This document shows, piece after piece, positions 9,228-26,191 of a stretch of DNA of 64,000 nucleotides (positions are counted from its first letter, which is position 1; each line of letters starts with the position of its first letter). The position numbers and the translations under genes are program-made. This DNA is from Candidatus Micrarchaeota archaeon (GTDB lineage: Archaea; Micrarchaeota; Micrarchaeia; Micrarchaeales; Micrarchaeaceae). The stretch lies in contig JAKAPJ010000003.1 of the NCBI GenBank assembly GCA_021807115.1, forward strand, positions 1,775 to 65,774, given 5' to 3'. The notes under the pieces are model-generated. The model saw only the letters and a program-made list of their open reading frames with translations, did not search any database and was not told the origin of the DNA.

Positions 9228-12200
9228 ATGAAGATTTTATTCCTGGCTCTGGCTGCCATCGCGGTACTTGCAAACGCCGCCATACTCTGCAGCAGCTATC
9301 TGGGACTTGGGCATGCGCATTATGCCAGCCGTCAGGCAATAGACATTAGCCTTGCCGCGGCGAACGGCACCACGGCCAACCAGACAGGCACGACGACGGC
9401 CACAACTACTACCACATCTGCCACGACGAGCACGACATCGACAGCGCCGCCAGCCAATGCGCCCGCGGTGTACAACGTGACATTCTACGAGAGTGGACTG
9501 CCCAGCAACGCGACATGGACAGTGAAATTTGGCAACGCATCCGCGCAATTCCCGGCACCTGAGCCGATAATATTCAGGGTATACGACGGAACCTACAGCT
9601 TCTTCGTCAGCTACAGCACCGCGAACAGCGTGGTGTTCTCGCCACTGCCGGAGAACGATAGCGTGACAGTGAACGGGCCTGCCTCGTACCTGATCAGCTT
9701 CGGCCAGCAGAACGCAACGTCCACGACGACCGCCACTACTACAACAAGCGCCTCCACGAGTGCGGCATCTACGGCAGCCAGCACGTCTAGCACGTCAGTC
9801 CAAAGCTCATCGAGCTCGGCGGCCACGACACAGGCAACATCGCAGACCACGACAGCCCTGACGAGCACAAGCAGCACGTCTCAGACGACTGCGGCCACGA
9901 CCACTACAGTAGCGACCGTGCAGGGTATGGTAAACACAACGGTACGCGAGGTGGGTCTGCCGAAGAACACGACATGGTACATAAGCTACGGCGCGGCCCA
10001 GCTATCATCCGCCACGAACGCCATGGAGGTGCAGACGCAGGGCGGCACCTATAACCTCATAGTCAAAAACGCCACGGCAAACGGGGTGGCGTTCGCTCCG
10101 AACGTGTCATCAGGATCGTTCGCCGCGGGATCAAACATATTGTTACTGTTCTCCCGCGTAGGCGCCGGGACATCGGGCACGACGACCACGATCGCATCCA
10201 CAACGAGCAGCACATCCTCATCTACCACCATATCATCGTCTACCACCACGGTTCCGCAGTGGACGGGGAGCACAAATGGGCTTTACAACGTTACTTTCTA
10301 TGAGATGGGGTTGCCAGGCAATACGCCGTGGACTGCTACGATAGCGAATGCGCACGCGTCTGCAGTCGCGCCAGACCAGATAGTTTTCATACTCAGGAAC
10401 GGCACGTACTCGTTCAACATGGGCAACGCGACCTCGGTTAATGGGACTTTTGCGCCTAACCCAGGCAATGCAACGATAACGGTAAACTCCTCCTCTTCAT
10501 ATATCGTGAGATTTTCACAGAAGCCGAATTACACGTCGCAGCGCGTCAATGTTTCGCAGGTCATAGACGGATTGGAGGCAGGCCTGAACCTCAGCGCTCC
10601 GATGTACCCAAACAAGGGACAGAGGTACACCTACATGCCAGAGAGGTTAGCCGTGATACCGATGCCAACAAATACGGCGGTTAATGGCTGGCTCCTCAAT
10701 GTCCCCGCGGCCAGCTTGAACTCTGAGAGAGCGATTGTAGTAGCTGGAAACACGCCCGCCAACCCTACAGGGTTCAGGGTGCTGAACACCAGCATAATGT
10801 ATGCGAACGAGGGGAATGAGACGCTGACGTACGCGCAGAACCTAAGTGCGGGAGTCACTACCCCGATACTATATGGTGACACCAATTCAATGCTGCGTGG
10901 GTTGTACCTAGACGCTAAGTCAAACACACGTTCAGCTTATGCCAAGATTGCTTATTCTGGGTTGCCGCAGAATAATGCTGCACCCCCGCAGACTCCGGTA
11001 TATTCGTATTTCACGGTAAACAGCACGGTACCAGACAGCAACATTACGAACGCGACATACACATTCTCCGTGAGCAGGCAGTGGGTGGAGAATGAGGGTG
11101 AATTCCCCCAGCAGGTGACCCTGCTCAAATACGTTAATGGAGGGTGGATAAACCTGCCTACCGCCTTGGAGAACGCCTCGCCGGAAGCATTTGTGTTCAA
11201 TGCCTCTTCAAGCTCGCTTTCCAGTTATGCGGTTTCCTTTGAAGCTAACGGAGTTATATACGGCTCCCCGTATACCACGAATGGCGTGCTCAACTTCAAA
11301 AAAGGCTATAGCACATATTTCGCCGCGTGCGCAACAGGAGGCTACACCATACCTGCAACGTCATTTAGCACCACGGTGAACAGCGCTTATTACTCAGGGT
11401 GCGGTGGGTACTGCGCGGAGGGGGGATATCAAACATCTAACACCGTATGGTGCCAACAATCCAACTTATGGTACTTCGTTTTTGCTGGTATAGGCGCGAA
11501 TGTGATAATAAAAAATGGCAATGTATTTGGGGCTGTCAACACCACTACCAACCCCAACGGCGAATCTGTGTATCTCACTTACAAAGTAGGTGCGGCGAAC
11601 AGCTTTGTGGTGCTTACAGGGGCATGTGGTTGGGAGAACTGCCATGTGCAACTGCCAACCGGATGCATGGCGCAAACCACAGGAATTAACGCATCCGGGC
11701 AGGACTCTGCCATAGCAGCCACTTGCGCACAGGGAACAGGCACATATACTGCAAACCTGATAGACGCGAATCCTGGCACCAATACGGGGCAAGGACCCGC
11801 AATAGGTGTATTTGAGGCATATGTCTTTCCGTCGTACAATGTGCTCCTTGAAACAAGCCCCGCAACTGCCAAGATACAGACGAACAACAATATAGAGTAC
11901 TCAAATGACGTGGTGATGAACGTCATCGGCGTAAACCCACTCAACGCCATAGCCCCGTCGAGCGGGACATGGCAATTCGTAAATTGGGTGTCCAGCGACG
12001 CAACCAACATCATAATAGCAAATACCATTGCCCAGGATACGTTCGCGACGGTAGAGGGCGATGGCAACATAATCGCGAGCTTCAACGGGATTACGACGTT
12101 CAGCGAAACCGGCCTTCCGTCAGGCTCTGCGTGGAACGTCCTGTACAATGGCAACATGATTTCCTCGAATTCTAATGCCATAACGTTCAACTTCGCCCCA

Positions 12201-14306
12201 GGCGCATATTCCTACACCATTGCAAATCAGGTCATAAGCGGGAACACGTATGTGCCGTTCCCCGCCACCGGGACCGCGGATTCGGGGAATTCTATTTCAG
12301 TCTCATTCAGCAAGCTGGGCTCCTTCACCCTGTCTTTGGTGAGCAACACACCGACGTACGACCAAAGCGACGCGGTGACGGTAACGGCAGGGAACCCGGC
12401 AAACACCGTGGAGATACTAATTGGGGCCGGCTCTGGGTCTGGAACCTCTGTTGCATCCGGCACCGGATCCGCAACATGCGATGTTGAAAGCACGTGCAAC
12501 CCTGACGGTAGTGGTGAGCCAATGGCGGCTGGCACGTGGAACGTGGTTGGATACGATGTTACCTCTGGAGCACATACCCCAAGCAATTCGCTTGTGATTG
12601 GAAAAGCTACACCTGCAATGTCGCTGGACTCACCGGGCAACATCGTGTATACTGGCGCAGGGGGGACTTTCAGCTTCTCGATAACCACGTACAACTCTCA
12701 AATCGCAGGCAACATGTACGTCAACAACGCACTGGAGGTGACCACCAACACGGAATCGACCTTCACGACTTCGCCTGACCTCAACACGTATGACGGGGTG
12801 TTCAACACACTGGGCAACGGCAATTACCTTACGGCGTCAGTGTCGAACAGCTTCACAATATCCTCCGCACCATTCACAGTGGACTTCACAAGCACTGCAA
12901 ATGCGTTGATTGGAGCAGCCACCGTATACGCGACACTACCGGGAGGTTTCAGCCAATACTACTGCAATGCAGGGACATTTACCACGTTTTCTTCATACAA
13001 TGGCGTATCGTGGGAAACAGATGTGAATGAAACGGGCAACGGTAGCCCGCCAAATGGAATATCTGTAGGCCACCAGAGCTCAAGCACATGCATTTCAAAT
13101 GCCATAGGCGCGGGAGGCACAGCAGGTACGACAGTAGCAGGCATCGGCGTAAACCAGATAAACTACCAGGTTATCACATCGAAGGCAGCTGCAATCACCT
13201 CCAATACGGTGGATTTTTCTGTAGGTGTTTCCAACTCTTTTGTCATAATACAGGCACCAACTGGGGTGAATGAAGCTCAAACTGTCTCCCTACCTGCGAA
13301 TTGCGTACAACAGCAGATGCTGATAGACGACTCTGCAGGTAGCCCGGGAGCCACATCTTACATAGCGACCTGCAGCAACATGGCAAGCGGTTCATATTCG
13401 CTATCGTGGACTCTACGTGGATCCGGAAGCGTCGCTGATGCAGTTTATATATTCCCGCCTTTCAAGGTAACCCTGAACAGCGTACCGTCCACCGCGAATA
13501 TAGAGACGAACAACAACATATATGCCAACGGCTTGACCATGAACGTGATAGGGGCTGGCACCATACAGACGATTGCGCCGTCCGATTCGTCCAACTATGT
13601 GTGGGTCGGGTGGACCGTGAACAACGCGATAAACCTAACCGTATTCAACTCCATCGCCGAGCTGACAACGCTGAATGTGGCGGGGAACGGCATACTCACG
13701 GCCAACTACAACGGCGTGGTGAACTTCGTGGAATCGGGCCTACCTGCAGGCACCACGTGGAACGTGGTCTACAACGGCCAGCTGCTCTCGTCCAGCGGCA
13801 CGACCATAACATTCAACGACGTAATAGGGCCGTCCTACTCCTACACGATAGCGAACCAGATAGCCTCGGGAAACCTTTACGGAACCACGCACATACACGG
13901 AAGCTCCGTGGCGCCCAACACCATAGATGTGCAGTTCGTGACCGGGTGCGCGATATTCCTTGCGCCAAACACCCTGGACTTCGGCAACATAGAACCAGGC
14001 GCCAACGTGCCTGCGGACTTCGCAGTCACAGACAACAACCTCGGGCCGGTGGTGGCAAATATACTAGTATCAGGGACAAACTGGATTGATGGCAGCAACA
14101 GCTACTTTACTGCAAACACCGTATTCAACGCAATATCACAGTCCTCGTACGTGGGTATACCCCTGCCCCTCTTCCAGACCACTATTGACACTATGGACCA
14201 AATAACTGGGTTCTTCTCCCTAGGCGTGTACTTCGGGACGGCCGTGCCGCCAAGCGAGGAGAGGGGTTCGTACACGCAAAACATAATAATAGAGAACAGC
14301 TGTTGA
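9228..14306 (+). CDS. Giant secreted, heavily glycosylated surface protein (1692 aa)
   Basis: Signal peptide MKILFLALAAIAVLANA. Thr/Ser linkers. Five repeats of F.E.GLP...W(.)V....(G)(T)YS(Y/F). Pre-PGF-like segment (about 10995-11243). Duplicated 240-aa supermodule. C-terminal module ending ENSC-stop. Many N-X-S/T sequons. Confidence 0.9.
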   Translation: MKILFLALAAIAVLANAAILCSSYLGLGHAHYASRQAIDISLAAANGTTANQTGTTTATTTTTSATTSTTSTAPPANAPAVYNVTFYESGLPSNATWTVKFGNASAQFPAPEPIIFRVYDGTYSFFVSYSTANSVVFSPLPENDSVTVNGPASYLISFGQQNATSTTTATTTTSASTSAASTAASTSSTSVQSSSSSAATTQATSQTTTALTSTSSTSQTTAATTTTVATVQGMVNTTVREVGLPKNTTWYISYGAAQLSSATNAMEVQTQGGTYNLIVKNATANGVAFAPNVSSGSFAAGSNILLLFSRVGAGTSGTTTTIASTTSSTSSSTTISSSTTTVPQWTGSTNGLYNVTFYEMGLPGNTPWTATIANAHASAVAPDQIVFILRNGTYSFNMGNATSVNGTFAPNPGNATITVNSSSSYIVRFSQKPNYTSQRVNVSQVIDGLEAGLNLSAPMYPNKGQRYTYMPERLAVIPMPTNTAVNGWLLNVPAASLNSERAIVVAGNTPANPTGFRVLNTSIMYANEGNETLTYAQNLSAGVTTPILYGDTNSMLRGLYLDAKSNTRSAYAKIAYSGLPQNNAAPPQTPVYSYFTVNSTVPDSNITNATYTFSVSRQWVENEGEFPQQVTLLKYVNGGWINLPTALENASPEAFVFNASSSSLSSYAVSFEANGVIYGSPYTTNGVLNFKKGYSTYFAACATGGYTIPATSFSTTVNSAYYSGCGGYCAEGGYQTSNTVWCQQSNLWYFVFAGIGANVIIKNGNVFGAVNTTTNPNGESVYLTYKVGAANSFVVLTGACGWENCHVQLPTGCMAQTTGINASGQDSAIAATCAQGTGTYTANLIDANPGTNTGQGPAIGVFEAYVFPSYNVLLETSPATAKIQTNNNIEYSNDVVMNVIGVNPLNAIAPSSGTWQFVNWVSSDATNIIIANTIAQDTFATVEGDGNIIASFNGITTFSETGLPSGSAWNVLYNGNMISSNSNAITFNFAPGAYSYTIANQVISGNTYVPFPATGTADSGNSISVSFSKLGSFTLSLVSNTPTYDQSDAVTVTAGNPANTVEILIGAGSGSGTSVASGTGSATCDVESTCNPDGSGEPMAAGTWNVVGYDVTSGAHTPSNSLVIGKATPAMSLDSPGNIVYTGAGGTFSFSITTYNSQIAGNMYVNNALEVTTNTESTFTTSPDLNTYDGVFNTLGNGNYLTASVSNSFTISSAPFTVDFTSTANALIGAATVYATLPGGFSQYYCNAGTFTTFSSYNGVSWETDVNETGNGSPPNGISVGHQSSSTCISNAIGAGGTAGTTVAGIGVNQINYQVITSKAAAITSNTVDFSVGVSNSFVIIQAPTGVNEAQTVSLPANCVQQQMLIDDSAGSPGATSYIATCSNMASGSYSLSWTLRGSGSVADAVYIFPPFKVTLNSVPSTANIETNNNIYANGLTMNVIGAGTIQTIAPSDSSNYVWVGWTVNNAINLTVFNSIAELTTLNVAGNGILTANYNGVVNFVESGLPAGTTWNVVYNGQLLSSSGTTITFNDVIGPSYSYTIANQIASGNLYGTTHIHGSSVAPNTIDVQFVTGCAIFLAPNTLDFGNIEPGANVPADFAVTDNNLGPVVANILVSGTNWIDGSNSYFTANTVFNAISQSSYVGIPLPLFQTTIDTMDQITGFFSLGVYFGTAVPPSEERGSYTQNIIIENSC
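9712..9920 (+). repeat. Thr/Ser-rich low-complexity linker (coding)
   Basis: NATSTTTATTTTSASTSAASTAASTSSTSVQSSSSSAATTQATSQTTTALTSTSSTSQTTAATTTTVATV. Similar linkers lie at about 9385-9445, 10165-10255, 27205-27325, 35593-35675 and 48075-48175. Confidence 0.9.
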
Positions 14307-14367
14307 CTTTAGTATGCGCCCGATAGGAATTTTCTTTCCGCGAAACGTCATCGTAAGACCTTCGACA

Positions 14368-14382
14368 AAGGTTATAAATAGG
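14368..14382 (+). promoter_or_regulatory. TATA box upstream of the second giant gene
   Basis: aaaggttataaatag lies about 37 nt upstream of the ATG at 14419, so the second giant gene appears to have its own promoter. Confidence 0.45.
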
Positions 14383-14418
14383 CCGTAAGCCAGATTTTAC
14401 GGGGGGTTTTATTTGCAA

Positions 14419-17400
14419 ATGTATAAGTTAACTTTATTTGCACTACTGCTCTTGCCGCTTGTTTGTACGACCATGACGTCAGCCAGAATTGTAATAATAA
14501 ACTTATCTATACAAAAAAACCCGATTGTATATGGGGCACAAGACAACATAACTGCAAAAACCAATGGGCCGACAGCACCACTGGCTATTTTAATAAACGG
14601 TAAGGAGGTAGCAAATGCTGGTTGTAACTACCCATGTTATGTTAATTATAGTAGTAATTTTAGCGAATGGCGCAACAACATCACCTATACAGTATGCTCA
14701 GTTCCGGCTACGTGCCTATTACCTGGTGTGTATAATGTATCGGCGTTTACGGCTTTGTCTGCTTTTCGCTATGCAAACGCTACGCTAAGCGTCACTGGTT
14801 CGTACCAGAATGTCACGCCTAATTTGGCACTGCAATCGAACCGAATAGCTTACGGTACGCAGGATGTGATAATGGCAAATTCCTTTGTGCAGTCGACAAA
14901 TGTGACCATTTTTATCAATGGTTTAGCAATGTCGCAAGGCAGGGGAAACGCAGCATATGTAATCTGCTCGTCAAATACGACCGCAACGTGCCTTGCGCCA
15001 GGCATGTACAACATTACCGCCAAAGCCCAAATGTCAAATGCAAGTAAAAGCTTTATTCTGAATGTGTATAAGGGGGTTCCGGCCCTTTCGCTCTACCCGC
15101 CTGCAAATTATACATACAATGGCACACCGGGCAATGTTTCATTCGGAATAAAAACAGTGGGGAACCAGCTGGATGCTGTACTTTCGGGGGATGCAAACGG
15201 CTATACAAACAGCACGGCAACCGCGCTTACGGGCTACCTGCCCGGCAACTACAGCCTCGGCCTTTATTCTCCAGGCAACACCAACTATACCTATGCTGGC
15301 CTGTCTGCAAAGTTCAGCATATACCCGGTAGTTAACACCATAAAGACAGGAGTTCTCCCTACAGCAATCGCGGTGGATACCTGCAGGGACTACGTTTACG
15401 TGGCCAACTACGGCTCGAATACGCTTTCAGTGATAAACGGCACAGCAGTGATCGCAAACCTTTCCGTAGGGGCCGGGCCGCAGGCGCTCGTGTTCGACAG
15501 AAACAACTGTGAAATGTACTCTGCTGACTTTGCCGCCTCCGAAGTCACAGCAGTGGCCGGTCTTGACGTGATTGGGAACATGAGCGTAGGCAGCAACCCT
15601 GTGGCCCTAGCATTTGACAACGCGACCAATTCCATATATTCCGCAGACTACGGGTCGGACGAGATATCTGTAATAAACACGCTGTCGGACAGCCTCCAGA
15701 CCAACATAGGCGTGGGCCGCAAGCCCATAGCCATCCTGTACAACCCGATAAGGAACCTCACATATGTAGCCAATTTCGGCTCGAACAACGTATCCATATC
15801 CAACGGCGTTGCGGTAGTAAACAGCGTGGATGTGGGCGTGGAACCCGATGCGCTCGCGTACAACTCCACGGGCTGCGTATACGTTGCGAACTACGGGAGC
15901 GCCACGGTGTCCGTAATATGCGGGCTCCAGACAAGCACCATACCCAATGTCATGCCCCCGGCCCCACCGCAGCCGGGATACGGGAGCGGGTCCGGGGGGC
16001 CCGGCGTACCGTTCGGGGACAACGGCGCTTCGGGGTCCGCAGTGTGCACATCGCAGAACTGCTACACCATAAACCCCTCCAGGTGCCCGGATTGCATAGA
16101 CGAATTCCCGCCAAGCATAATAGTGGACACGCAGATGTGCAAATGCGGGAACCAGACCGCGGTCGTGGTCGACCTGATTCCGAGCGCCCCGTTCTTCGCC
16201 CTCTTCACGAAGAATTACCTTGATGCCACCGTCGCCGATGTCATATCGCAGCTCCAGGCGCAGGGGTTCAAAATCAACGACTTCAACGCAAGCGGCATGG
16301 CAAATCCGGCTGTCTCCTACACCGTGGCCACAACCGGTGTGGACTTCAACAACGGGTTTGGCATACCGGTTTCGGACGACCTGGTCAACCTGAGCAATGG
16401 CAACCCGCCATACCTAAGGAGCCTCTCCCTGCTGGGGCAGAACGGCATAGCGCTGCTTACCCCCATCTTCTACAGCGTCGGGGCCAGGGCCAGCCCTGCC
16501 GCTGATGGCGTTGCCCGCATGGTCATTGGCACGCTCAACGATGGCAGGCTGGCCATGCCTATTGACTATACCTTCATGATGGAGCCTAACTGGTATTTCT
16601 TCTCCCCTCCGCCTGCATACATACCGCTCTCTGTGGGGTCCATATACCAATCGGCTGGCCCGGGGCAGATGGTTGTCTTAACGATAGCCGCATCCGCACC
16701 GGCGAACGTACCAAGGTACGCGCTGGATGTGGGCGGGAACTTTGCACTGCCTTATATAGTAGGCTTAAACGAGCCTAGCGACGCGGAACAGTTCAACTAT
16801 TCCAGGAACGTGTCATCCAACACCGTATATGCAGCCGCCCCTGAAACGATGTCGGTGGCCTTTTCAGAGACGGGGCTTGGGGCGGGGGCGGTGTGGGGTG
16901 TGACGATCAACGGCACCACGCTGTATTCGAATTCTACCAGCCTCGTATTCCAGGGCCTTCGCCAAGGCAGCTACACGTATTCCGTGAATTCGGTGCGGAA
17001 CTACACCGCCATCCCGCCAGGCAGCCTGACAATAAACTGCTCAAACCTTACAGTGGGCATAGCATTCCAACCGGAGCCGCACACGGTCACATTTGTGTCA
17101 AACAGGACCGGAATAGGTTCCTGGGGCATCAGCCTGTCCAGCGGCCAGTCCCTGACGACCGCATCGGACTCCGTGCAGTTCAAGCTGTACAATGGGCAGT
17201 ACAAATTCAGCGCCGTGCCGCCAATCGGCTTCAGCGCCCTCCCAGCCATGGGGAACTTCACGGTTAATGGCACGAATGTTACCATAGAGATAGGCTTCAG
17301 GGGCACGTACGCGAACATGAGCGTGAATGCGATAAAGGTGGGCAAGTACCCGATAGCCGAGCTCTTCGACCCCCAGGACTGCCTGCTGTATGTTGCGAAC

Positions 17401-18690
17401 TATGGCTCTGGCACAGTATCTGTGATATCGGGCCCGGATAACATAGGCAACATTACCGTTGGATTGAACCCAAGGGCACTTGCCCTGTCCACATCGACAG
17501 GGTGGGTGTACGTGGCGGACAGGGGCTCAGGTACTGTCAGCGTTATAAACATGACAAGGCTGATAGCCACCATTCCAGTAGGGCCTAACCCATCCTCAAT
17601 AACCTATGATCCGCTGAGCGGCCTCGTATACGTGGCTGATCAGACCAATCTTACGGCGAGCGTAACGGTCATACGCGGCCTAGATGTCATTGATGGGCTT
17701 GCGGCGGGCAGCGGCACTGTTGTGGCAAACGGCAGCGCAGTTTCGCTGACATACAACCCATGCACTGGGCAGACCTACCAGCTGAATTCGACTTCGGGGA
17801 TATTGACAGTGATGAATGCCACCCTATACCATGCGCCGACCGCGATGATATCAGTATCGAATTCCGTGATTGGCTATGGCGGGTTCGCAAATTTCACTGC
17901 GACCGTAACAAACGGCTTCGGTCCATTCACGCTCAGTCTGGAGGAGGGGAACGGGAATGTGGTGCAGACCTTAAACAATATTACCCAGGGTACCGTGGCA
18001 TTCAGCCCATTCCATCCTCCCTCGGGTCTTGACGTCTACAGGGTGGCGGCAACAGACCGCGGCGTGTTGCCCAGCCACCAGTTCACATCGGCAAACCTTA
18101 CGGTGGATGTGGCATCGCTGCTCGAAGTGTTCGAAAATGCCGTGGGCGGCCCACTCTCTCCAGACAATTTCACAATTGACGTAGTGGGAAACGACCCTAC
18201 GCCTTCCACATTTAACGGCTCATCGTCCGGGGTGCAGGTTTCGATATTCGCAGGCAACTATGTTGTTAACACAAGTATGGTTGAGTTCTCGAACTTCAGC
18301 TTTTATTCACAGAACTTCACCCCAAGTTGCATTGGGAACATACATATCGGGCAGGCGGCAAATTGCACAGTAACAAGCACTTACACCGTGCCGCTGAAGC
18401 TGTCCGCGACCCTGGCATCCAACACTGACCATGTCAAGCTAGGCCAGAGCATAAGTTTTGTGGCGAACATGACCGGAGGTAGGCCGGACTATGCATATAG
18501 TGTACTGGTAAAGAATACGACTACGCACGGGCGTTTCGTCTATACGGGCCAAAACGGGACATCCACCGACAGCAGTATCACCTTCATTGAGACACCGCAG
18601 AAGCTGGGCTCGTCATTCTACATGGTAAACATCACGGACAGCTTGGGGATGAGGGCCAATGCGACGGTGCATATAGTGGCGAGCAGGTGA
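14419..18690 (+). CDS. Giant secreted surface protein (about 1423 aa) with two YVTN beta-propeller blocks, GLP..W repeats and PKD-like domains
   Basis: Signal peptide MYKLTLFALLLLPLVCTT. Repeats of Y(V/S)AN(Y/F)GS.T(V/L)SVI (about 15340-15925 and 17320-17830). Cys-rich insert. C-terminal (T/S)GG..(P/D)(F/Y) PKD-like units. ATG at 14419 preferred over TTG at 14413. Confidence 0.9.
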   Translation: MYKLTLFALLLLPLVCTTMTSARIVIINLSIQKNPIVYGAQDNITAKTNGPTAPLAILINGKEVANAGCNYPCYVNYSSNFSEWRNNITYTVCSVPATCLLPGVYNVSAFTALSAFRYANATLSVTGSYQNVTPNLALQSNRIAYGTQDVIMANSFVQSTNVTIFINGLAMSQGRGNAAYVICSSNTTATCLAPGMYNITAKAQMSNASKSFILNVYKGVPALSLYPPANYTYNGTPGNVSFGIKTVGNQLDAVLSGDANGYTNSTATALTGYLPGNYSLGLYSPGNTNYTYAGLSAKFSIYPVVNTIKTGVLPTAIAVDTCRDYVYVANYGSNTLSVINGTAVIANLSVGAGPQALVFDRNNCEMYSADFAASEVTAVAGLDVIGNMSVGSNPVALAFDNATNSIYSADYGSDEISVINTLSDSLQTNIGVGRKPIAILYNPIRNLTYVANFGSNNVSISNGVAVVNSVDVGVEPDALAYNSTGCVYVANYGSATVSVICGLQTSTIPNVMPPAPPQPGYGSGSGGPGVPFGDNGASGSAVCTSQNCYTINPSRCPDCIDEFPPSIIVDTQMCKCGNQTAVVVDLIPSAPFFALFTKNYLDATVADVISQLQAQGFKINDFNASGMANPAVSYTVATTGVDFNNGFGIPVSDDLVNLSNGNPPYLRSLSLLGQNGIALLTPIFYSVGARASPAADGVARMVIGTLNDGRLAMPIDYTFMMEPNWYFFSPPPAYIPLSVGSIYQSAGPGQMVVLTIAASAPANVPRYALDVGGNFALPYIVGLNEPSDAEQFNYSRNVSSNTVYAAAPETMSVAFSETGLGAGAVWGVTINGTTLYSNSTSLVFQGLRQGSYTYSVNSVRNYTAIPPGSLTINCSNLTVGIAFQPEPHTVTFVSNRTGIGSWGISLSSGQSLTTASDSVQFKLYNGQYKFSAVPPIGFSALPAMGNFTVNGTNVTIEIGFRGTYANMSVNAIKVGKYPIAELFDPQDCLLYVANYGSGTVSVISGPDNIGNITVGLNPRALALSTSTGWVYVADRGSGTVSVINMTRLIATIPVGPNPSSITYDPLSGLVYVADQTNLTASVTVIRGLDVIDGLAAGSGTVVANGSAVSLTYNPCTGQTYQLNSTSGILTVMNATLYHAPTAMISVSNSVIGYGGFANFTATVTNGFGPFTLSLEEGNGNVVQTLNNITQGTVAFSPFHPPSGLDVYRVAATDRGVLPSHQFTSANLTVDVASLLEVFENAVGGPLSPDNFTIDVVGNDPTPSTFNGSSSGVQVSIFAGNYVVNTSMVEFSNFSFYSQNFTPSCIGNIHIGQAANCTVTSTYTVPLKLSATLASNTDHVKLGQSISFVANMTGGRPDYAYSVLVKNTTTHGRFVYTGQNGTSTDSSITFIETPQKLGSSFYMVNITDSLGMRANATVHIVASR

Positions 18691-18801
18691 AGAAGGTACA
18701 GCATCCCTTCGGAGCTGCGGCCGCACACCACAGTTCCTGGGCGGCGCGAGGTATGCATCCTGGGTGACTACAAAAAGTTATATGTTTAACTGTACAAAGT
18801 A

Positions 18802-20844
18802 GTGGTTTGTGATATTGTGGTTACCGTACTTAGGAAGTCTGCAGAAGCGGCAGGGAGTGCAACTGGGAATTCAGATGGCAGCGTGCAGGCTCCCGGATTT
18901 TCTATAAAGTACATGGAGGGCACCGTCGACCCGCGCAAGGACTTCTACACTTATTCGGTAGGGGAATGGCTGAAGACTCATCCAGTCCCGCCCGACAAGC
19001 CGGTGTTCAACGCGTTCTACGAGCTCAGGGACTGGAACATGGAACGACTGCACATGATAGTGGATGACTGCAATGCGGGCAAGGCCGCACCTGCCGGATC
19101 CTATGCGAGGATGGTTGGGGACTTCTACGGCTCAGCCATGGACACTAAGCTGATTGATGCCGCAAGGTTTGCACCGATAGACGATCTCTGGCAGAGTGTG
19201 GCGGGCGTAAAGACCCAGGGCGACATAATGCGACTGCTTCCGCAGCTGCATATGGCGGGGGTAGGGGCGCTGTTCAACGTATATTCGGATGCGGACCAGA
19301 AGAACAGCGCTACGTATGCACTCTACTTTAGGCAGGGGGGCCTGACGCTGCCGGACCGAGAATACTACCTGTCAGACACGTTCGCACAGGTGCGCGCGGA
19401 CTACAAAGAACATGTGGCCAAGATGTTTATACTCAAGGGAATAGCAGAGCCCCAGGCAAGAAACTGGGCAGAAACCGTGCTTGGAATAGAAACGGAGATG
19501 GCAAAATCGAGCAGATCGAGGACAGACCTAAGGGACAGCGAAAAGAACTACAACATGATGGAGACTGCCCAGCTCGATTCCAGGTACGCGACCCTTTCGC
19601 TTAACGCATATATGAAGGACATAGGGGTGCCTCCAACGCAGTATGCTGTGGTCGGACAGCCTGAATTCCTTGATGCGCTCAACGGCCAGTTGTCAAGCCG
19701 CAGCGTGGATGACTGGAAGGTGTACCTCTACTGGAAGACGCTGCACTCGTTCGCATCCAAGCTGCACAGGGAGGTGGACGATGAGAACTTCGACATGTTT
19801 GGGCGCAAGTTAATGGGGCAGCAGCAGCCCGAACCGCGGTGGAAACGCGCCATAAGCACGATAGACAGCGAGATAGGGGAGGCGCTGGGCAAGATATACG
19901 TAGACGGGTACTTCGACCAGACGGCAAGCAGGAAGGCCAATGAACTTGTAGGGGACATAATAGCCGTAATGAGGGACAGGTTGGAGACCCTTCCGTGGAT
20001 GACGGAAGATACCCGCAGGCAGGCAGTGGCGAAGCTTGACTCACTGAACGTGAAGATAGGCCATCCTGCCGCATTCAGGGACTATACGGGCCTGACAGTT
20101 ATGGTAGATGATTATGTGGGAAACATACGGAGGGCGGAGGAGTTTGAGCTGCGCAGGCAGACCGCTAGGGTTGGGCAGCAGGTGGACAGGAACGAGTGGC
20201 TCATGACGCCGCAGACGGTAAACGCATATTACGAACCGACAAGGAATGAGATTGTATTCCCTGCAGGGATACTGCAGCCGCCGTTCTTCGATGCGAAGAT
20301 GGACACGGCAGTCAACTATGGGGGGATAGGGGCGGTTATAGGGCACGAGATAACGCACGGCTTCGACGACCAAGGCAGGCTGTACGATGCTAGCGGCAAC
20401 CTTAAGAACTGGTGGAAGCCGGAGGACGAGAGGGAGTTCAAGGCAAGAGCCAGTACGGTGATACGGGAGTACAGCGAGCAGGAGGCCCTGCCCAAAATGT
20501 TTATAAACGGCGACATGACGCAGGGGGAGAACATAGCAGACATGGGAGGCCTTAGCATAGCCTATGAAGCCCTGCAAAGGCGCCTGAAAAAGGATCCGCA
20601 GCTAGCGCAGACGATAGACGGCCTTACGCCGGACCAGCGCTTTTTCATATCGTTCGCGCAGGTATGGAGGCAGTCGATAACGGAACAGGAGCTCAAACGG
20701 CGGCTCACCATAGACGAGCATTCGCCAGCCAAGTACAGGGCAACGATACCCGTGATAAACCATCCGGAGTTCGATAGGGCGTTCCCGCAGCAAACTGGCA
20801 CGGACACTGTGCCGCCGAGGGGCGAAAAGGTGGGCGTCTGGTAG
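18802..20844 (+). CDS. M13-family zinc metallopeptidase (neprilysin/PepO-like)
   Basis: VNAYYEPTRNEIVFPAGILQPPFF, HEITHGFDDQG (HExxH) and GENIADMGG motifs. The start is either GTG 18802 or ATG 18913 (MEGTVDPRKDFYTY...). No clear signal peptide. Confidence 0.9.
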   Translation: MVCDIVVTVLRKSAEAAGSATGNSDGSVQAPGFSIKYMEGTVDPRKDFYTYSVGEWLKTHPVPPDKPVFNAFYELRDWNMERLHMIVDDCNAGKAAPAGSYARMVGDFYGSAMDTKLIDAARFAPIDDLWQSVAGVKTQGDIMRLLPQLHMAGVGALFNVYSDADQKNSATYALYFRQGGLTLPDREYYLSDTFAQVRADYKEHVAKMFILKGIAEPQARNWAETVLGIETEMAKSSRSRTDLRDSEKNYNMMETAQLDSRYATLSLNAYMKDIGVPPTQYAVVGQPEFLDALNGQLSSRSVDDWKVYLYWKTLHSFASKLHREVDDENFDMFGRKLMGQQQPEPRWKRAISTIDSEIGEALGKIYVDGYFDQTASRKANELVGDIIAVMRDRLETLPWMTEDTRRQAVAKLDSLNVKIGHPAAFRDYTGLTVMVDDYVGNIRRAEEFELRRQTARVGQQVDRNEWLMTPQTVNAYYEPTRNEIVFPAGILQPPFFDAKMDTAVNYGGIGAVIGHEITHGFDDQGRLYDASGNLKNWWKPEDEREFKARASTVIREYSEQEALPKMFINGDMTQGENIADMGGLSIAYEALQRRLKKDPQLAQTIDGLTPDQRFFISFAQVWRQSITEQELKRRLTIDEHSPAKYRATIPVINHPEFDRAFPQQTGTDTVPPRGEKVGVW

Positions 20845-20850
20845 GCGGCG

Positions 20851-21270
20851 TCAGCAGCTGTTCTCGACCATTATGTTCTGGGTGTATGTGCCGTGCGCAG
20901 TGTACGGCACCCTGAGGCCGTAGTAGATGCTGTTGGAGAACCCGTAGCCGGGCGTTACCACCAGCTTGCTGTCGGCAGGTATGGAGGAGTACAGCACAAG
21001 GGCGTTGCCGGAGTACGATTGCAGGGAAGTAGGGTTCCACAGCGTGTTTGACACCGAGAAAGAATTGGACCCGAAAATCCAGTTAGTGCCGGATAGATGT
21101 AGATGAGTATGGCTATAATTCTTTCTATGCCATAGCGGCATGGTCTGGCACATGGGCCGCGCCAAGGACATGCTGTATGTAGCAGGATATGAAAATTGGC
21201 CCTGTATTCGACTGCGCGGATTTGCGTACGATGATGTGAAGTGGCATACCAGGGGGAGCTCTACTGGCAT
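20851..21270 (-). CDS. Orphan paralog of the giant protein's C-terminal module (139 aa, no signal peptide; possibly a gene remnant)
   Basis: The last 82 aa (HLSGTNWIFGSNS...GTYTQNIMVENSC) align with the last 80 aa of ORF 9228-14306 (LVSGTNWIDGSNS...GSYTQNIIIENSC). The N-terminal 55 aa look non-homologous. Confidence 0.5.
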   Translation of the reverse strand: MPVELPLVCHFTSSYANPRSRIQGQFSYPATYSMSLARPMCQTMPLWHRKNYSHTHLHLSGTNWIFGSNSFSVSNTLWNPTSLQSYSGNALVLYSSIPADSKLVVTPGYGFSNSIYYGLRVPYTAHGTYTQNIMVENSC

Positions 21271-22616: not shown

Positions 22617-24620
22617 TCACTTGCTTTTCGGCTTGTTCCGGGTCAGCATGTATGCTGCCACTAATATTACTACGATTACAACCACGATGCCGATGTCCAC
22701 CATGGGCAGGGGGCCTGCCGATGCGGGCGTAGATCCGCCGCCAGTATTGTATCCCGGATATCCCGGGCCGGTGCCGGAGGGGTTGGTTGACGTGGAGGGA
22801 GCACTGCCGGGCTGTGGTGGGAGGTTCATTGACGCCATGGATTCATTGGACAGAATAACATATTCGATAGTATTGTTCCAGCCGCCGAAGGCCGCCTTTG
22901 CCGACGCATTGTAATTGCTGGGCGGCCCGCGCATAATTTCCCGTACATTGTACCTGACCAGTACGCCCGTATCCTTATCAAACCATTCCCGTATTGAATA
23001 GTTGATAGAATAGGTAGATGATGACTGAGCAGCAGTTAGGGTCAGCAGGTCGGTCTTGAACGTTCCTGCGGGCAGTGCTACAGTCTGGTTGGTATTTACT
23101 GACGCATTGAAATTGCCGGCACGCATTGTATTTAAAAATTCTGTGGCATTGCCCTCGTTAAGTGCAACCAGGTATGATGGTGCCAGCGCAAACATGCCCA
23201 GATAATTCTGATTTGTGAATGATCCTGTGTTTATTGTAGCGTTACCTGATTGTGAACAGCCGGATAAAATTGATACTATGCACCCCGACATCGTCATTGT
23301 AAACGTCGCGTTTGCTATGCTCACGTTGGATATTGCAACCCTGTAATTTGAAGTGCCGGTTTTTTCGAATGTGAGGTTGCCGTTTGCGTAATTTTCCGAT
23401 GTACCCCCCAAGAATATGCCCATGTCCATTACATTCATTGATGCTGCTTTGTCGATGTAGGACCTCTGCGCAGGGGTGACGTTGATTAGGGTTATGGAGG
23501 TACTGTTGGTCCCGGAGTAGGTGAATGTGGCTCCGTTGGAGGCGTATCCAGGCACCTGCACTGAGCCGGTGAATGTGGCAGTAGCAGGGGCTGTGCGGGT
23601 ATCCCCAGAGTACTGCGCCGTGACAGTGTACGTGGCGCCGTTAGGCCTGTAGATCGTGGCCGCTGTGCCGCTGCTATGCGTCCTCGTCACCTCGGAGAAG
23701 CTGCCTCCCGACGGGCTCCCGGAGAAGCTGACCGTACCGGTTGGGGCTGTGCTGGCGCTTACTGAGACACTGCATGTGACATTCCCGGCCGCCGGCACCG
23801 GATTAGGCGAACATGTCATGTTCATCGTTGGGCGCGGCAGGGTACCGCCGTAGGATACACCGCTGCTGTTTGACCCCTGCAAGGGGGACGCGCCTGGGGC
23901 GAATGTGATAACCACAAGCAGATCCGCATTGCGCGACGCGGAGCCGGCTGTGGGGTTTGATGTATTTTCAAAAATTGTGTAGGTTCCGGGATTCAAGTAT
24001 AGGACTGTGGGCGGCGGCCCTGAGGATCCGGAGATAACGGAGGTAAGCGGCGGTATGCCTGACTGTTCTGCCTGGACGTCGAATTCTTTTATTATGTCAG
24101 GTCCCGGCGAAACGAAGGGGTTGCCGTACCTGCCGCTTAATGGGATTACCACGGTCATGCTGCCTGGCACTGTGACATTGAAGGTGTCATACACGCCCTT
24201 TGTATTGGGGGTGCTGTTGGTCGCATAGCTTACACTATAGGATGAATAGCCAGATGCCCCAAACCCGCCCACGCTGTAGTTGACAAAGTAGTTGTACTGG
24301 TAGCCGGATATCGTCTCGTTGGGCTGCGAAGTGATTGCTACGGCATCTACTACATACCCTTCGGAGTTCTTGACGCTGACCACCTGCCCATTAGAGAATC
24401 CGGATACGGGCGTTGTGCCATCGGTGGACATGAGGAATATGTAGGCTTCGGACGGAGTCGACATGTTGTAAACCGGCGACGGAAGACCTTCAGATGCTAT
24501 GGGGTTGTTGAGGCTGGAATTTATAGCCTGCGGGAATGTGGCCGATGCCACGGCAGACAGCGTCGATAATGATATAACAAACAGCATCAAAGCAAGTGCG
24601 CTTGGACCTTTTACCCCCAT
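22617..24620 (-). CDS. Secreted surface protein with an Ig-like (Big_3-type) domain and a C-terminal TM anchor
   Basis: Signal MGVKGPSALALMLFVISLSTLSAVASA. TGTVSFSGSPSGGSF...TVTAQYSGDTRTAPATATF is Ig-like. C-terminus MVDIGIVVVIVVILVAAYMLTRNKPKSK. Confidence 0.8.
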   Translation of the reverse strand: MGVKGPSALALMLFVISLSTLSAVASATFPQAINSSLNNPIASEGLPSPVYNMSTPSEAYIFLMSTDGTTPVSGFSNGQVVSVKNSEGYVVDAVAITSQPNETISGYQYNYFVNYSVGGFGASGYSSYSVSYATNSTPNTKGVYDTFNVTVPGSMTVVIPLSGRYGNPFVSPGPDIIKEFDVQAEQSGIPPLTSVISGSSGPPPTVLYLNPGTYTIFENTSNPTAGSASRNADLLVVITFAPGASPLQGSNSSGVSYGGTLPRPTMNMTCSPNPVPAAGNVTCSVSVSASTAPTGTVSFSGSPSGGSFSEVTRTHSSGTAATIYRPNGATYTVTAQYSGDTRTAPATATFTGSVQVPGYASNGATFTYSGTNSTSITLINVTPAQRSYIDKAASMNVMDMGIFLGGTSENYANGNLTFEKTGTSNYRVAISNVSIANATFTMTMSGCIVSILSGCSQSGNATINTGSFTNQNYLGMFALAPSYLVALNEGNATEFLNTMRAGNFNASVNTNQTVALPAGTFKTDLLTLTAAQSSSTYSINYSIREWFDKDTGVLVRYNVREIMRGPPSNYNASAKAAFGGWNNTIEYVILSNESMASMNLPPQPGSAPSTSTNPSGTGPGYPGYNTGGGSTPASAGPLPMVDIGIVVVIVVILVAAYMLTRNKPKSK

Positions 24621-24773
24621 ATACACACCATAATAAGCATGCTCATTTTGTAATGGGAACATGTGTTTAAATCCCTTTCATTGCCTTCGGCATGCAATGC
24701 CGGCGACTGTGGTGGAAAACGAACCGATAGGTAGGTTTTTAAAACATGCCACACAAGTCTATGAGGTGCTACT

Positions 24774-26168: not shown

Positions 26169-26191
26169 ATTAGTAGGGGTAGCCATTGCGC

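What the first reader, a model, noticed from the sequence alone, without database searches (positions are those of the whole stretch)
13942..21270. C-terminal module ending ...YTQNI(I/M)(I/V)ENSC-stop occurs twice, in inverted orientation, bracketing 6.5 kb
The last 80 aa of the 1692-aa protein are LVSGTNWIDGSNSYFTANTVFNAISQSSYVG...GSYTQNIIIENSC. They align with the last 82 aa of the minus-strand ORF 20851-21270, HLSGTNWIFGSNSFSVSNTLWNPTSLQSYSG...GTYTQNIMVENSC. By my manual alignment 19 of the first 40 positions are identical, 10 of the last 13 are identical, and there is a 2-aa indel. Both copies end on the same terminal Cys.

At DNA level, 33 of the last 42 nt are identical by hand count. 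That makes 14265-14306 and 20851-20892 an imperfect inverted repeat.

The orphan copy has no signal peptide, and its first about 55 aa are unrelated in frame. A different frame just upstream reads ...NTGPIFISCYIQHVLGAAHVPDH.... This weakly resembles the giant protein's ...TGCAIFLAPNTLDFGNIEPGANVPADF..., so the orphan may be a frameshifted remnant.

Two readings:
- It is a decayed paralog.
- It is a silent C-terminal cassette. 3' ends facing each other is the geometry used by inversion-type tail-fibre/pilin variation systems, and a crossover would swap the distal module and invert the segment carrying the second giant gene and the M13 peptidase.

The invariant C-terminal Cys is itself unusual. 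It is not a CaaX box and not a PGF-CTERM. It could be a disulfide or anchoring residue.
Basis: partly seen in the sequence, partly recalled or inferred. Interest (0 to 1): 0.68.

Follow-up and report, generated by a model that had tools for sequence, protein, structure and literature searches.

The report
Truncated copy of archaeal surface-protein module
The two "…ENSC" endings are two members of a large, undescribed family of C-terminal surface-protein modules in tiny symbiotic archaea (Micrarchaeota); one is intact on a giant secreted protein, the other is a beheaded leftover, and nothing indicates a DNA-inversion switch.

Summary
The last ~85 aa of the 1692-aa protein and of ORF 20851-21270(-) align at 45% identity (E 3e-17), and 33 of the last 42 nt match.

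The pair is not special. An exhaustive profile search finds 274 cluster representatives carrying this ~125-aa module. In 145 of the 149 top hits that carry it, the last module ends on the protein's final residue, and 145 of the top 150 proteins end in Cys. All hits that carry an organism label are archaeal, almost all Candidatus Micrarchaeota/Micrarchaeia. The same genome holds five more intact copies.

The orphan covers only profile positions 47-128. It lacks a signal peptide, the first ~46 positions and the partner Cys. No upstream frame shows above-chance similarity. It is closer to other members than to the giant's module. The DNA "inverted repeat" (longest exact run 11 nt) is as similar as any paralog pair, and three assemblies share one orientation.

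The terminal Cys co-varies with a Cys at the module start, which suggests a disulfide.

Module genes sit in conserved clusters directly upstream of a membrane-anchored protein with a PapD-like fold. This resembles Gram-positive WxL clusters and chaperone-usher pili.

Verdict: a truncated paralog, not a cassette. The family and its gene cluster are new and moderately interesting.

The parts
9228..14306 (+). Gene for a 1692-aa secreted giant surface protein. It has an N-terminal signal peptide, Ser/Thr-rich tracts, repeated ~80-aa domains and an internal PGF-pre-PGF domain, and it ends in one intact ENSC module.
   Evidence: Translation. TIGR04213 hit at aa 554-669. Internal repeats and the homolog P0004. 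It is P0002 in the exhaustive search.
13923..14303 (+). Intact C-terminal ENSC module of the giant, covering family-HMM positions 4-128. The first conserved Cys codon is at 13947-13949 and the terminal Cys codon at 14301-14303, followed by the stop codon at 14304-14306.
   Evidence: hmmsearch of the six-frame translation, E 1.4e-40. AlphaFold2 model: all-beta, pLDDT 79.
20854..21108 (-). Truncated module copy (the 'orphan'), covering family-HMM positions 47/48-128 only and ending ...YTQNIMVENSC before the stop codon at 20851-20853.
   Evidence: hmmsearch E 3.8e-29 for positions 47-128. The retained half scores 93.2 bits, within the range of intact modules.
21109..21270 (-). 5' part of the orphan ORF. 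It has no detectable relation to the family, no signal peptide and no partner Cys in register. Public gene calls start the ORF at an internal ATG, giving the 100-aa product P0001.
   Evidence: No HMM hit to positions 1-46 in any frame. Shuffle test. Gene calls in L001/L002.
14271..14307 (.). Left arm of the imperfect inverted repeat. It is the set of codons for YTQNIIIENSC plus the stop codon.
   Evidence: the repeat finder I1: 37 nt, 84% complementary. Longest exact run 11 nt.
20850..20886 (.). Right arm of the imperfect inverted repeat. It is the set of codons for YTQNIMVENSC plus the stop codon on the minus strand.
   Evidence: The same level of identity (27-36/42) holds between any two paralog 3' ends in this genome.
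14413..20844 (+). The bracketed segment: a 1425-aa YVTN/NHL beta-propeller surface protein (14413-18690) and an M13 metallopeptidase (18802-20844). Neither carries the module.
   Evidence: Pfam and NCBIfam hits. No module HMM hit in this segment.

Best explanation
Shown.
- The ENSC ending marks a ~125-aa all-beta module family that has no Pfam, NCBIfam or PDB sequence match.
- Every hit that carries an organism label is archaeal, almost all Candidatus Micrarchaeota/Micrarchaeia (DPANN archaea).
- The module sits at the extreme C-terminus of secreted proteins in three size classes: signal peptide plus one module (~150-200 aa), signal peptide plus two modules (~320 aa), and large or giant proteins of 370-3400 aa ending in the module.
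- The window holds one intact copy, on the 1692-aa protein, and one 5'-truncated copy. Five more intact single-module genes lie elsewhere on the same 194-kb contig.
- The two window copies are ordinary, deeply diverged paralogs. Their inverted DNA similarity reflects purifying selection on the codons for SGTNWI and YTQNIxxENSC.

Inferred.
- The orphan is a gene fragment, most probably a recently beheaded single-module gene. It cannot be secreted and cannot form the complete fold. It is not a recombination cassette.
- The terminal Cys pairs with the conserved Cys at the start of the module, either as an intradomain staple between the first strand and the C-terminus or, less likely, as a head-to-tail intersubunit bond.
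- The module is a docking or assembly domain. In every locus examined that encodes the partner protein, a module gene lies directly upstream of it. The partner has a signal peptide, a PapD/ASH-like Ig domain, a Ser/Thr stalk, a transmembrane helix and an Arg/Lys-rich tail.
- I propose that this membrane-anchored PapD-like protein captures the module, plausibly by beta-strand complementation. That would hold small subunits and giant adhesin-like proteins, including the window's giant, on the cell surface or in a short fibre. The arrangement parallels WxL/WxLIP clusters of Firmicutes and chaperone-pilin pairs.
For: Size and position of the family.
- 274 representatives with E<=1e-3, 153 with E<=1e-10.
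- In 145 of the 149 top hits that carry the module, the last module ends on the protein's last residue.
- 145 of the top 150 proteins end in Cys.

Taxonomy.
- Named hits are 'Candidatus Micrarchaeia/Micrarchaeales archaeon'.
- The strict motif plus stop codon occurs in 11 loci of GTDB species genomes. Nine are labelled Micrarchaeota, one Marsarchaeota and one only 'archaeon'.

The family is undescribed. There are no Pfam or NCBIfam hits and no PDB sequence hit.

The orphan.
- It covers HMM positions 47-128 only, with nothing upstream in any frame.
- No detached N-terminal half exists anywhere in the window.
- Its nearest relatives are other family members, not the giant.
- Its 3'-end DNA identity to the giant is typical of any paralog pair, and exact runs reach only 11-17 nt.
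- Three assemblies share one orientation.

The Cys pair. 159 of 178 modules carry exactly two Cys, at positions 12 and 128, and the two are usually lost together. The PapD-like partner shows no Cys in its ectodomain (alignment).

Gene clusters.
- Five paralogs plus the 303-aa transmembrane protein lie together in L003.
- A homolog of that protein lies immediately downstream of a module gene in L003, L006, L007, L010, L011, L013, L015, L017/L018 and L019.

Folds.
- Module model: pLDDT 79. Foldseek hits are weak (E 1e-3 to 1e-1, TM 0.4-0.56) but dominated by chaperone-usher pilins, the PapG pilin domain and the archaeal bundling pilin.
- Partner model: Foldseek hits to ASH/PapD-like domains (E 9e-8, TM 0.69), to the fimbrial chaperones FaeE and Caf1M, and to E. 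faecium WxLIP.
- Partner sequences: 2 of 10 members hit Pfam WxLIP_PGBD (best E 2e-5) and 5 of 10 hit Cep192_D6.
- The WxL cluster architecture is described in PMC10599100.
Against: - The retained half of the orphan shows no decay. It scores 93.2 bits against 94.4 for the giant's own module and a family median of 101.6. Either the truncation is recent or the fragment is kept for some reason.
- A second, independent copy in another organism (P0120) is truncated at almost the same profile position, 45. That is odd for random decay.
- The pilin-like fold assignment is weak, with low TM-scores. The top Foldseek hit is a glycosidase N-terminal beta-sandwich.
- No physical interaction between module and partner was tested.
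- The window itself has no partner gene, so the giant would depend on a locus elsewhere in the genome.
- Consensus assemblies cannot exclude a minority inverted isoform.
Confidence: 0.7

Rival explanations
1. Inversion-type variation. The orphan is a silent 3' cassette. Recombination between the inverted ENSC-coding arms would swap the giant's distal module and flip the 6.5-kb segment.
For: The geometry fits: the two 3' ends face each other, with a 37-nt arm at 84% and a second 29-nt arm at 76%. The orphan lacks its own 5' end and signal peptide. Its retained half is undecayed. A second half-module ORF exists in another genome.
Against: The longest exact match is 11 nt. Identity between the arms is no higher than between any pair of the seven paralogs (27-36/42), and it is confined to conserved-motif codons. 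The orphan is only 45% identical to the giant's module and closer to other members. No invertase or integrase family appeared in Pfam scans of most of the larger ORFs between about 2.9 and 33.8 kb. Three assemblies show one orientation. The second truncated copy (L020) has no intact inverted partner within 4 kb.
Confidence: 0.03
2. Frameshifted full-length pseudogene. The orphan was a complete signal-peptide-plus-module gene in place, and its 5' half is still present upstream in another frame.
For: The nucleotide spacing from VP to SGTNW is 58 nt against 63 nt, which is compatible with a small indel (read directly from the sequence).
Against: No frame hits profile positions 1-46, even with filters off and E<=100. 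139 of 200 shuffles match or beat the frame-2 peptide. Only about 210 nt separate the upstream gene's stop codon (21320) from the start of homology. No frame in that stretch encodes a hydrophobic signal peptide.
Confidence: 0.08
3. The half-module is a functional short gene in its own right. It could be a class of C-terminal-half ORFs used, for example, as a cytoplasmic regulator, an immunity or decoy peptide, or a leaderless secreted strand-accepting fragment.
For: The ORF is open for 139 codons. The conserved half scores like intact modules. Gene callers predict it in all assemblies. An independent copy in another lineage has the same boundary, profile position 45.
Against: It has no signal peptide, lacks the disulfide partner and lacks about three N-terminal strands of a beta-sandwich. 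Only two such copies were seen among about 300 family members. There are no expression data.
Confidence: 0.12
4. Concerning module function: the module is a self-polymerising pilin that uses donor-strand or disulfide-linked head-to-tail assembly. The small proteins would form the shaft, the giants would be tip adhesins, and the PapD-like transmembrane protein would act as chaperone and anchor. This contrasts with a simple one-to-one docking tag.
For: Multi-paralog clusters of small subunits. Two-module proteins. Foldseek hits to FimG, FimA, PapA, CsuA/B, Caf1, the PapG pilin domain and AbpA. An N-terminal stretch with an alternating pattern (NVxAxVxV) lies before the first Cys and is disordered in the model. 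The partner resembles the fimbrial chaperones FaeE and Caf1M. Thin filaments of unknown composition have been seen on a related DPANN archaeon (PMC11329633).
Against: TM-scores are only 0.4-0.56. The model has a complete C-terminal strand, unlike chaperone-usher pilins, which lack the G strand. There is no usher or pore component. No filament has been tied to these genes.
Confidence: 0.25

Closest known systems
WxL surface-protein clusters of Lactobacillales/Bacillales: small WxL protein, large WxL protein and WxLIP (DUF916-DUF3324-TM). Source: PMC10599100; PDB 9i1y and 9i25.
   Same: The three-part gene-cluster logic is the same. Small proteins consist only of a signal peptide and the domain. 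Large proteins carry the same domain at the extreme C-terminus behind variable N-terminal domains. A conserved Ig-like protein has a C-terminal transmembrane helix. The archaeal partner hits WxLIP in Foldseek (E 1e-5), and 2 of 10 members hit Pfam WxLIP_PGBD.
   Different: The ENSC module has no WxL Pfam hit and no dual W-x-L motif. It is about 125 aa rather than 160-190 aa, and it has a conserved Cys pair. The hosts are archaea without peptidoglycan, so the WxL function of binding peptidoglycan cannot apply. The partner has one Ig domain, not two.
Chaperone-usher pili: the PapD/FimC/Caf1M/FaeE chaperones, the Fim/Pap/Csu pilins and the two-domain adhesins FimH/PapG.
   Same: The partner has a PapD-like fold. 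The module is an Ig-like sandwich whose best small-protein Foldseek hits are pilins and the PapG pilin domain. Adhesin-like large proteins carry the subunit domain at their C-terminus. Several paralogous small subunits are encoded per cluster.
   Different: There is no usher and no outer membrane. The chaperone-like protein is membrane-anchored and has a single domain. The module model has a C-terminal strand. There is no sequence homology and the structural scores are low.
Archaeal donor-strand filaments: Sulfolobus threads (PMC9715654) and the bundling pili AbpA of Pyrobaculum (PMC9245690, PDB 7ueg).
   Same: These are archaeal secreted beta-sandwich subunits exported by the Sec pathway and assembled outside the cell without a type-IV machinery. 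7ueg appears among the Foldseek hits (rank 19, E 8e-3).
   Different: There is no sequence similarity. Those systems lack giant proteins that share the subunit domain, and they lack a conserved PapD-like transmembrane partner. Polymerisation of the ENSC module has not been shown.
Inversion shufflons and tail-fibre switches (Rci shufflon, Gin/Cin/Min) and pilS-type silent cassettes.
   Same: A 5'-less partial copy of a surface-protein C-terminus faces the expressed gene in inverted orientation.
   Different: There is no recombinase gene, no near-identical crossover sites and no elevated DNA identity. Only one cassette is present, and it is more similar to other family members than to the expressed gene.

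Membership tests
Site-specific inversion switch (shufflon / Gin-Cin-Min type) | A recombinase (serine invertase or tyrosine Rci-like) encoded next to the invertible segment | tested here: not met
   Pfam scans of most of the larger ORFs between about 2.9 and 33.8 kb found no resolvase, invertase, integrase or transposase family. Several small ORFs have no family hit at all and cannot be classified.
Site-specific inversion switch (shufflon / Gin-Cin-Min type) | Near-identical inverted crossover sites at the boundary between constant and variable parts | tested here: not met
   The best arms are 37 nt at 84% and 29 nt at 76%. The longest exact run is 11 nt. Identity equals that of any paralog pair.
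Site-specific inversion switch (shufflon / Gin-Cin-Min type) | Both orientations present in populations | tested here: inconclusive
   The window and two other assemblies (ENA ERZ27237364, Logan SRR13206618) are collinear at 99.98% identity. Reads were not available, so minority isoforms cannot be excluded.
Homologous-recombination silent cassette (pilS-like) | Long tracts of high DNA identity between the silent and expressed copies | tested here: not met
   blastn finds only 36-49-nt segments at 83-86% identity over motif codons. The longest exact match is 11 nt to the giant and 17 nt to the five other paralogs.
PGF-CTERM / archaeosortase substrates | A C-terminal PGF motif followed by a transmembrane helix and a basic tail | tested here: not met
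   Both proteins end ...ENSC with no hydrophobic tail. No PGF-CTERM model hit was found. Only an internal PGF-pre-PGF domain is present, at aa 554-669.
WxL domain (Pfam PF13731) | Profile match and dual Trp-x-Leu motifs in a 160-190-aa C-terminal domain | tested here: not met
   None of the 33 members scanned against Pfam at E<=1 matched WxL. The module is about 125 aa.
WxL-type cluster (architecture only) | Small domain-only protein, large protein with the C-terminal domain and an Ig-like partner with a C-terminal transmembrane helix, all in one cluster | tested here: met
   Seen in L003, L010, L017 and L019, and partly in L006, L007, L011, L013 and L015. The definition comes from PMC10599100.
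WxLIP / DUF916 (PF06030), for the partner protein | Profile match above the family threshold, and a tandem DUF916-DUF3324 pair | tested here: inconclusive
   2 of 10 members hit WxLIP_PGBD (best E 2.2e-5). More members hit other PapD/ASH-like families. Only one Ig domain is predicted. Foldseek to 9i1y gives E 9e-6 with a TM-score of about 0.3.
Chaperone-usher pilins (Pfam Fimbrial and relatives) | Profile match, and an incomplete Ig fold lacking the C-terminal G strand that is completed by a donor strand | tested here: not met
   No Pfam hit. The AF2 model has a C-terminal strand at residues 134-139. Foldseek similarity is weak, with TM 0.33-0.56. Donor-strand exchange cannot be tested with these tools.
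PapD-like / ASH / MSP fold, for the partner protein | An Ig-like beta-sandwich of the PapD/MSP type | tested here: met
   Foldseek: 6fvi E 9e-8 with TM 0.69, 2e6j TM 0.73, plus FaeE, Caf1M and MSP. The family profile hits HYDIN in PDB sequences at E 1e-4. Sub-threshold Pfam hits to Cep192_D6 and CFAP65 Ig.
   No Pfam hit. TasA itself is not among the top 50 Foldseek hits. The TasA-like AbpA (7ueg) appears at rank 19 with E 8e-3 and TM 0.43.

The most novel reading that the evidence does not exclude
The ENSC module, the membrane-anchored PapD-like protein, the ~700-aa transmembrane-anchored surface protein and the adjacent ParA/MinD-type ATPase may together form a previously undescribed surface-assembly system specific to Micrarchaeota. 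It would be an archaeal counterpart of chaperone-pilin or WxL/WxLIP systems. In it, strand complementation and a Cys pair would tether small subunits and interchangeable giant adhesins, such as the window's 1692-aa protein, to the cell. These could be the long-sought molecules by which these DPANN symbionts attach to their hosts. The recurrent half-module ORFs (this orphan and P0120) might then be a functional by-product rather than debris.
Probability: 0.35. Interest if true: 0.75.

Novelty: new variant of a known kind. Interest (0 to 1): 0.5.

Why it matters
Micrarchaeota (ARMAN) are tiny DPANN archaea with reduced genomes that live attached to host archaea. The molecules that mediate this attachment are unknown. 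The finding as stated, an inversion switch, does not hold.

Checking it uncovered three things:
- a domain family without any database model, apparently restricted to this lineage, with 274 cluster representatives;
- the rule that the domain sits at the very C-terminus of proteins from 150 to 3400 aa;
- a conserved gene cluster that pairs the domain with a membrane-anchored PapD-like protein.

Together these give a concrete, testable hypothesis for how these archaea display giant adhesin-like proteins. They also add an archaeal example of a surface-display logic known so far from Gram-positive WxL clusters and Gram-negative chaperone-usher pili.

For genome annotation, the family model allows these proteins to be recognised and truncated copies to be flagged as fragments.

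Tried and rejected
- The word-indexed protein search with the two-copy profile found only the orphan itself and missed even the giant. It is not informative about family size. The exhaustive search was needed.
- The search for related loci with the 40-sequence alignment failed because no stretch was conserved enough. I replaced it with a degenerate DNA pattern for YTQNI[IVM][IVM]ENSC plus a stop codon.
- I looked for the orphan's missing 5' half in other frames and anywhere else in the 64-kb window. Nothing was found.
- I looked for a syntenic ortholog of the orphan in relatives by using the adjacent M13 peptidase as an anchor in metagenome contigs. The closest peptidase is only 45% identical, and none of the 29 loci carries a module or a partner gene. 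The 'absent from relatives' test could therefore not be done.
- SNP comparison of three assemblies shows no differences between 10851 and 23665, so it gives no information on selection.
- Rfam and tRNA scans found nothing in the region.
- PGF-CTERM, CaaX, TasA/camelysin and the WxL domain were all considered for the module and rejected for lack of any profile match.
- The Micrarchaeum S-layer protein (PF05123; bioRxiv 10.1101/2021.04.28.441871) belongs to a different family.
- Literature searches found no description of this module or of Micrarchaeota filament subunits.
- I could not measure the Cys-Cys distance because model coordinates are not exposed.

Full report
**1. The observation**

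ORF 9228-14306(+) encodes a 1692-aa protein that ends ...GSYTQNIIIENSC. ORF 20851-21270(-) encodes 139 aa that end ...GTYTQNIMVENSC.

- BLASTP aligns the last 85 residues at 45% identity, E 3e-17.
- The last 42 nt match at 33/42.
- The repeat finder reports inverted arms 14271-14307 / 20850-20886 (37 nt, 84%) and 14059-14087 / 21076-21104 (29 nt, 76%).
- tblastn finds no third copy in the window.

**2. The two copies belong to a large family**

A word-indexed search found only the orphan. An exhaustive HMMER search of 1.84 billion cluster representatives with the two-sequence profile found 274 proteins at E<=1e-3 and 153 at E<=1e-10.

Among the best 150 hits:
- 145 end in Cys and 85 end in ENSC.
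- 149 contain the module by a rebuilt 128-position HMM. In 145 of these the last module ends exactly on the protein's last residue.

The proteins fall into three size classes:
- about 150-200 aa: signal peptide plus one module;
- about 312-342 aa: signal peptide plus two modules;
- 370-3421 aa: a variable N-terminal part plus the module.

Named members are hypothetical proteins of 'Candidatus Micrarchaeia/Micrarchaeales archaeon'. A degenerate DNA pattern for YTQNI[IVM][IVM]ENSC plus a stop codon hits 11 loci in GTDB species genomes. Nine are labelled Candidatus Micrarchaeota, one Marsarchaeota and one only 'archaeon'.

No Pfam or NCBIfam model matches the module, and no PDB sequence does. The window therefore most likely comes from a Micrarchaeota (DPANN) archaeon. 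An archaeal origin fits the PGF-pre-PGF domain in the giant and the proteasome, SBDS and exosome genes nearby.

**3. More copies in the same genome**

P0164, a 189-aa member, lies on the same 194-kb ENA contig as the window. Its locus (L003) carries five single-module genes of 179, 189, 220, 186 and 186 aa, all with signal peptides and ENSC or ENQC ends. The genome therefore has at least seven copies.

**4. What the orphan is**

- The family HMM aligns the orphan only from position 47 to 128 (E 3.8e-29). With all filters off and E<=100, no frame of 20851-21330 matches positions 1-46.
- There is no detached N-terminal half anywhere in the window.
- Only about 210 nt separate the stop codon of the upstream 155-aa gene (21320) from the start of homology, and no frame there encodes a signal peptide.

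The orphan is therefore a 5'-truncated copy. It lacks the signal peptide, roughly the first three strands and the first conserved Cys.

It is not a copy of the giant's module. Its best matches are P0007 (59.5%), several large proteins from other organisms (about 50-52%) and the paralog at L003 8935-9495 (51%). The giant's module (45%) is not among its top 15 hits.

One caveat is that the retained half is undecayed. It scores 93.2 bits against a C-half HMM, compared with 94.4 for the giant and a family median of 101.6. The truncation is either recent or the fragment is retained.

A second truncated copy exists in another organism. P0120 (L020/L021) covers profile positions 45-128 and has stop codons just upstream. 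I cannot explain the shared boundary.

**5. The inversion-cassette idea**

- For the seven paralogs of this genome, the last 42 nt are 27-36/42 identical in every pairwise comparison. The giant-orphan value of 33 is typical, and the orphan is closer (35-36) to three other copies.
- The longest exact match is 11 nt to the giant and 17 nt to the L003 paralogs. blastn similarity is limited to the codons for SGTNWI and YTQNIxxENSC.
- No recombinase family appeared in Pfam scans of most of the larger ORFs between about 2.9 and 33.8 kb.
- Two further assemblies from different samples are collinear with the window at 99.98% identity, with no SNPs in the region.
- No close relatives with synteny could be found.

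The cassette reading has no positive support. Only read-level data could exclude a rare isoform.

**6. The terminal Cys**

The module has two conserved Cys columns: position 12 (160/178) and position 128 (170/178).

- 159 of 178 modules contain exactly two Cys.
- Modules that lack the last Cys almost always lack the first as well.
- In two-module proteins each module has its own pair.
- The partner protein's ectodomain shows no Cys.

I infer a disulfide between the first strand and the C-terminal residue. A head-to-tail intersubunit bond is the alternative. The orphan lacks the partner Cys.

**7. Fold**

AlphaFold2 on the giant's last 140 aa, with a 33-sequence alignment, gives an all-beta model. 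The mean pLDDT is 79, and the 18 residues before the first Cys are disordered.

Foldseek against the PDB gives only weak hits (E 1e-3 to 1e-1, TM 0.33-0.56). They comprise:
- the GH123 N-terminal sandwich;
- many chaperone-usher pilins (FimG, FimA, PapA, CsuA/B, Caf1, CfaB);
- the PapG pilin domain;
- an ASH/PapD-like domain;
- the archaeal bundling pilin AbpA.

The safe statement is that the module is an Ig-like beta-sandwich. The pilin resemblance is a lead, not a classification.

**8. Genomic context of the family**

Module genes cluster together. For example, L010 encodes a 190-aa protein (one module), then a 1480-aa protein (C-terminal module), then a 322-aa protein (two modules).

Immediately downstream of a module gene lies a homolog of the 303-aa protein of L003. 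This holds in every locus examined that encodes such a homolog: L003, L006, L007, L010, L011, L013, L015, L017/L018 and L019. Each homolog has a signal peptide, a conserved ~130-aa domain, a Ser/Thr-rich stalk, a transmembrane helix and an Arg/Lys-rich tail.

A ~700-aa transmembrane-anchored surface protein co-occurs in L003, L005, L006, L009, L014, L017 and L019. A ParA/MinD-type ATPase sits beside it in L003, L017 and L019.

The window has no homolog of the 303-aa or the ~700-aa protein. The giant gene is thus a satellite of a core locus encoded elsewhere on the same contig.

**9. The partner protein**

The AlphaFold2 model has pLDDT 80-90 over the Ig domain.

- Foldseek matches ASH/PapD-like domains (CEP192, E 9e-8, TM 0.69; HYDIN, TM 0.73), MSP domains, the fimbrial chaperones FaeE and Caf1M (E 1e-6 to 1e-5) and WxLIP of Enterococcus faecium, including the complex with a long WxL protein (9i1y, 9i25; E 1e-5).
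- The family profile hits HYDIN among PDB sequences (E 1e-4).
- In Pfam, 5 of 10 members hit Cep192_D6, 4 of 10 hit a CFAP65 Ig domain and 2 of 10 hit WxLIP_PGBD (best E 2.2e-5).

**10. Comparison with known systems**

WxL clusters of Firmicutes consist of three proteins: a small protein that is only a signal peptide plus the WxL domain, a large protein with a C-terminal WxL domain behind host-binding domains, and WxLIP, which has Ig-like domains and a C-terminal transmembrane helix. A WxLIP strand is predicted to insert into the WxL sandwich (PMC10599100).

The ENSC clusters have the same three-part architecture. However, the module is not a WxL domain: it has no profile match, a different length and a Cys pair. 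Archaea also lack peptidoglycan.

Chaperone-usher systems share the PapD-like helper and the C-terminal pilin domain on adhesins, but they need an usher and an outer membrane.

I therefore propose a working model. The membrane-anchored PapD-like protein binds the module, probably by strand complementation. This retains small subunits and giant adhesin-like proteins at the cell surface or in a short fibre. All of this is inference from gene neighbourhood and fold.

Thin filaments and host connections of unknown composition have been seen on related DPANN cells (PMC11329633). The known Micrarchaeum S-layer protein belongs to a different family.

**11. Verdict**

- The interpretation as a decayed paralog is partly right: the orphan is truncated, not detectably frameshifted, and not derived from the giant.
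- The inversion-cassette reading is not supported.
- The disulfide suggestion is supported by co-variation.

The underlying family and its conserved cluster appear to be undescribed. I class them as a new variant of a known kind of surface-display system.

Noticed in passing
L020 125-376 and L021 241-492 (protein P0120): A second, independent 5'-truncated module ORF from another organism and other samples. It covers profile positions 45-128 only, with stop codons directly upstream and no N-terminal half in 240 nt upstream. The boundary is nearly the same as in the window's orphan. It is also convergent with an unrelated gene. The shared breakpoint is unexplained.
   Followed up: partly
L003 2803-10506 (same genome and same 194-kb contig as the window, outside it): The core cluster contains a 733-aa transmembrane-anchored surface protein, a ParA/MinD-type ATPase, three single-module genes, the 303-aa PapD-like transmembrane protein, two more single-module genes and a 133-aa Cys-rich protein. 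The trio of the ~700-aa protein, the ParA-like ATPase and the PapD-like protein recurs in L017 and L019. The role of the ATPase is unknown.
   Followed up: partly
window 14413-18690 (+): A second giant secreted protein of 1425 aa with YVTN/NHL beta-propeller repeats (TIGR02276, E 1e-26) and many N-glycosylation sequons. It has no ENSC module and no C-terminal transmembrane helix, so how it stays on the cell is unclear.
   Followed up: no
window 9228-14306 (+), protein residues 81-161, 236-291, 352-432 and further copies near 957-1015: The giant contains repeated ~80-aa domains of the form 'NVTF(Y/E)E.GLP...W', separated by long Ser/Thr tracts. There is also a ~190-aa block near residues 1312-1503 that matches P0004. 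P0004 (1431 aa, GCA_027320165.1) has the same architecture but ends in two modules.
   Followed up: partly
window 22617-24662 (-) and 26186-28285 (+): Two further secreted glycoprotein-like proteins of about 656-699 aa end in a transmembrane helix plus a short basic tail. This is a different anchoring mode from the ENSC module, so the region as a whole is a surface-protein island.
   Followed up: no
window 23666, 23677, 28549, 28568, 28575: These are the only differences between the window and the two other assemblies across about 20 kb. They cluster in two short spots: two inside the 656-aa surface-protein gene and three inside the DUF2779 gene.
   Followed up: no
window 18802-20844 (+): An M13 (neprilysin-like) metallopeptidase sits between the surface-protein genes. 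Its closest relative in JGI metagenome contigs is only 45% identical. Its stop codon lies 6 nt from the orphan's stop codon, in convergent orientation.
   Followed up: partly
L019 6343-6861 (+): A 172-aa single-module gene is missed by the deposited gene calls, which instead call a 149-aa ORF on the opposite strand. Family members are probably under-annotated in public MAGs.
   Followed up: no
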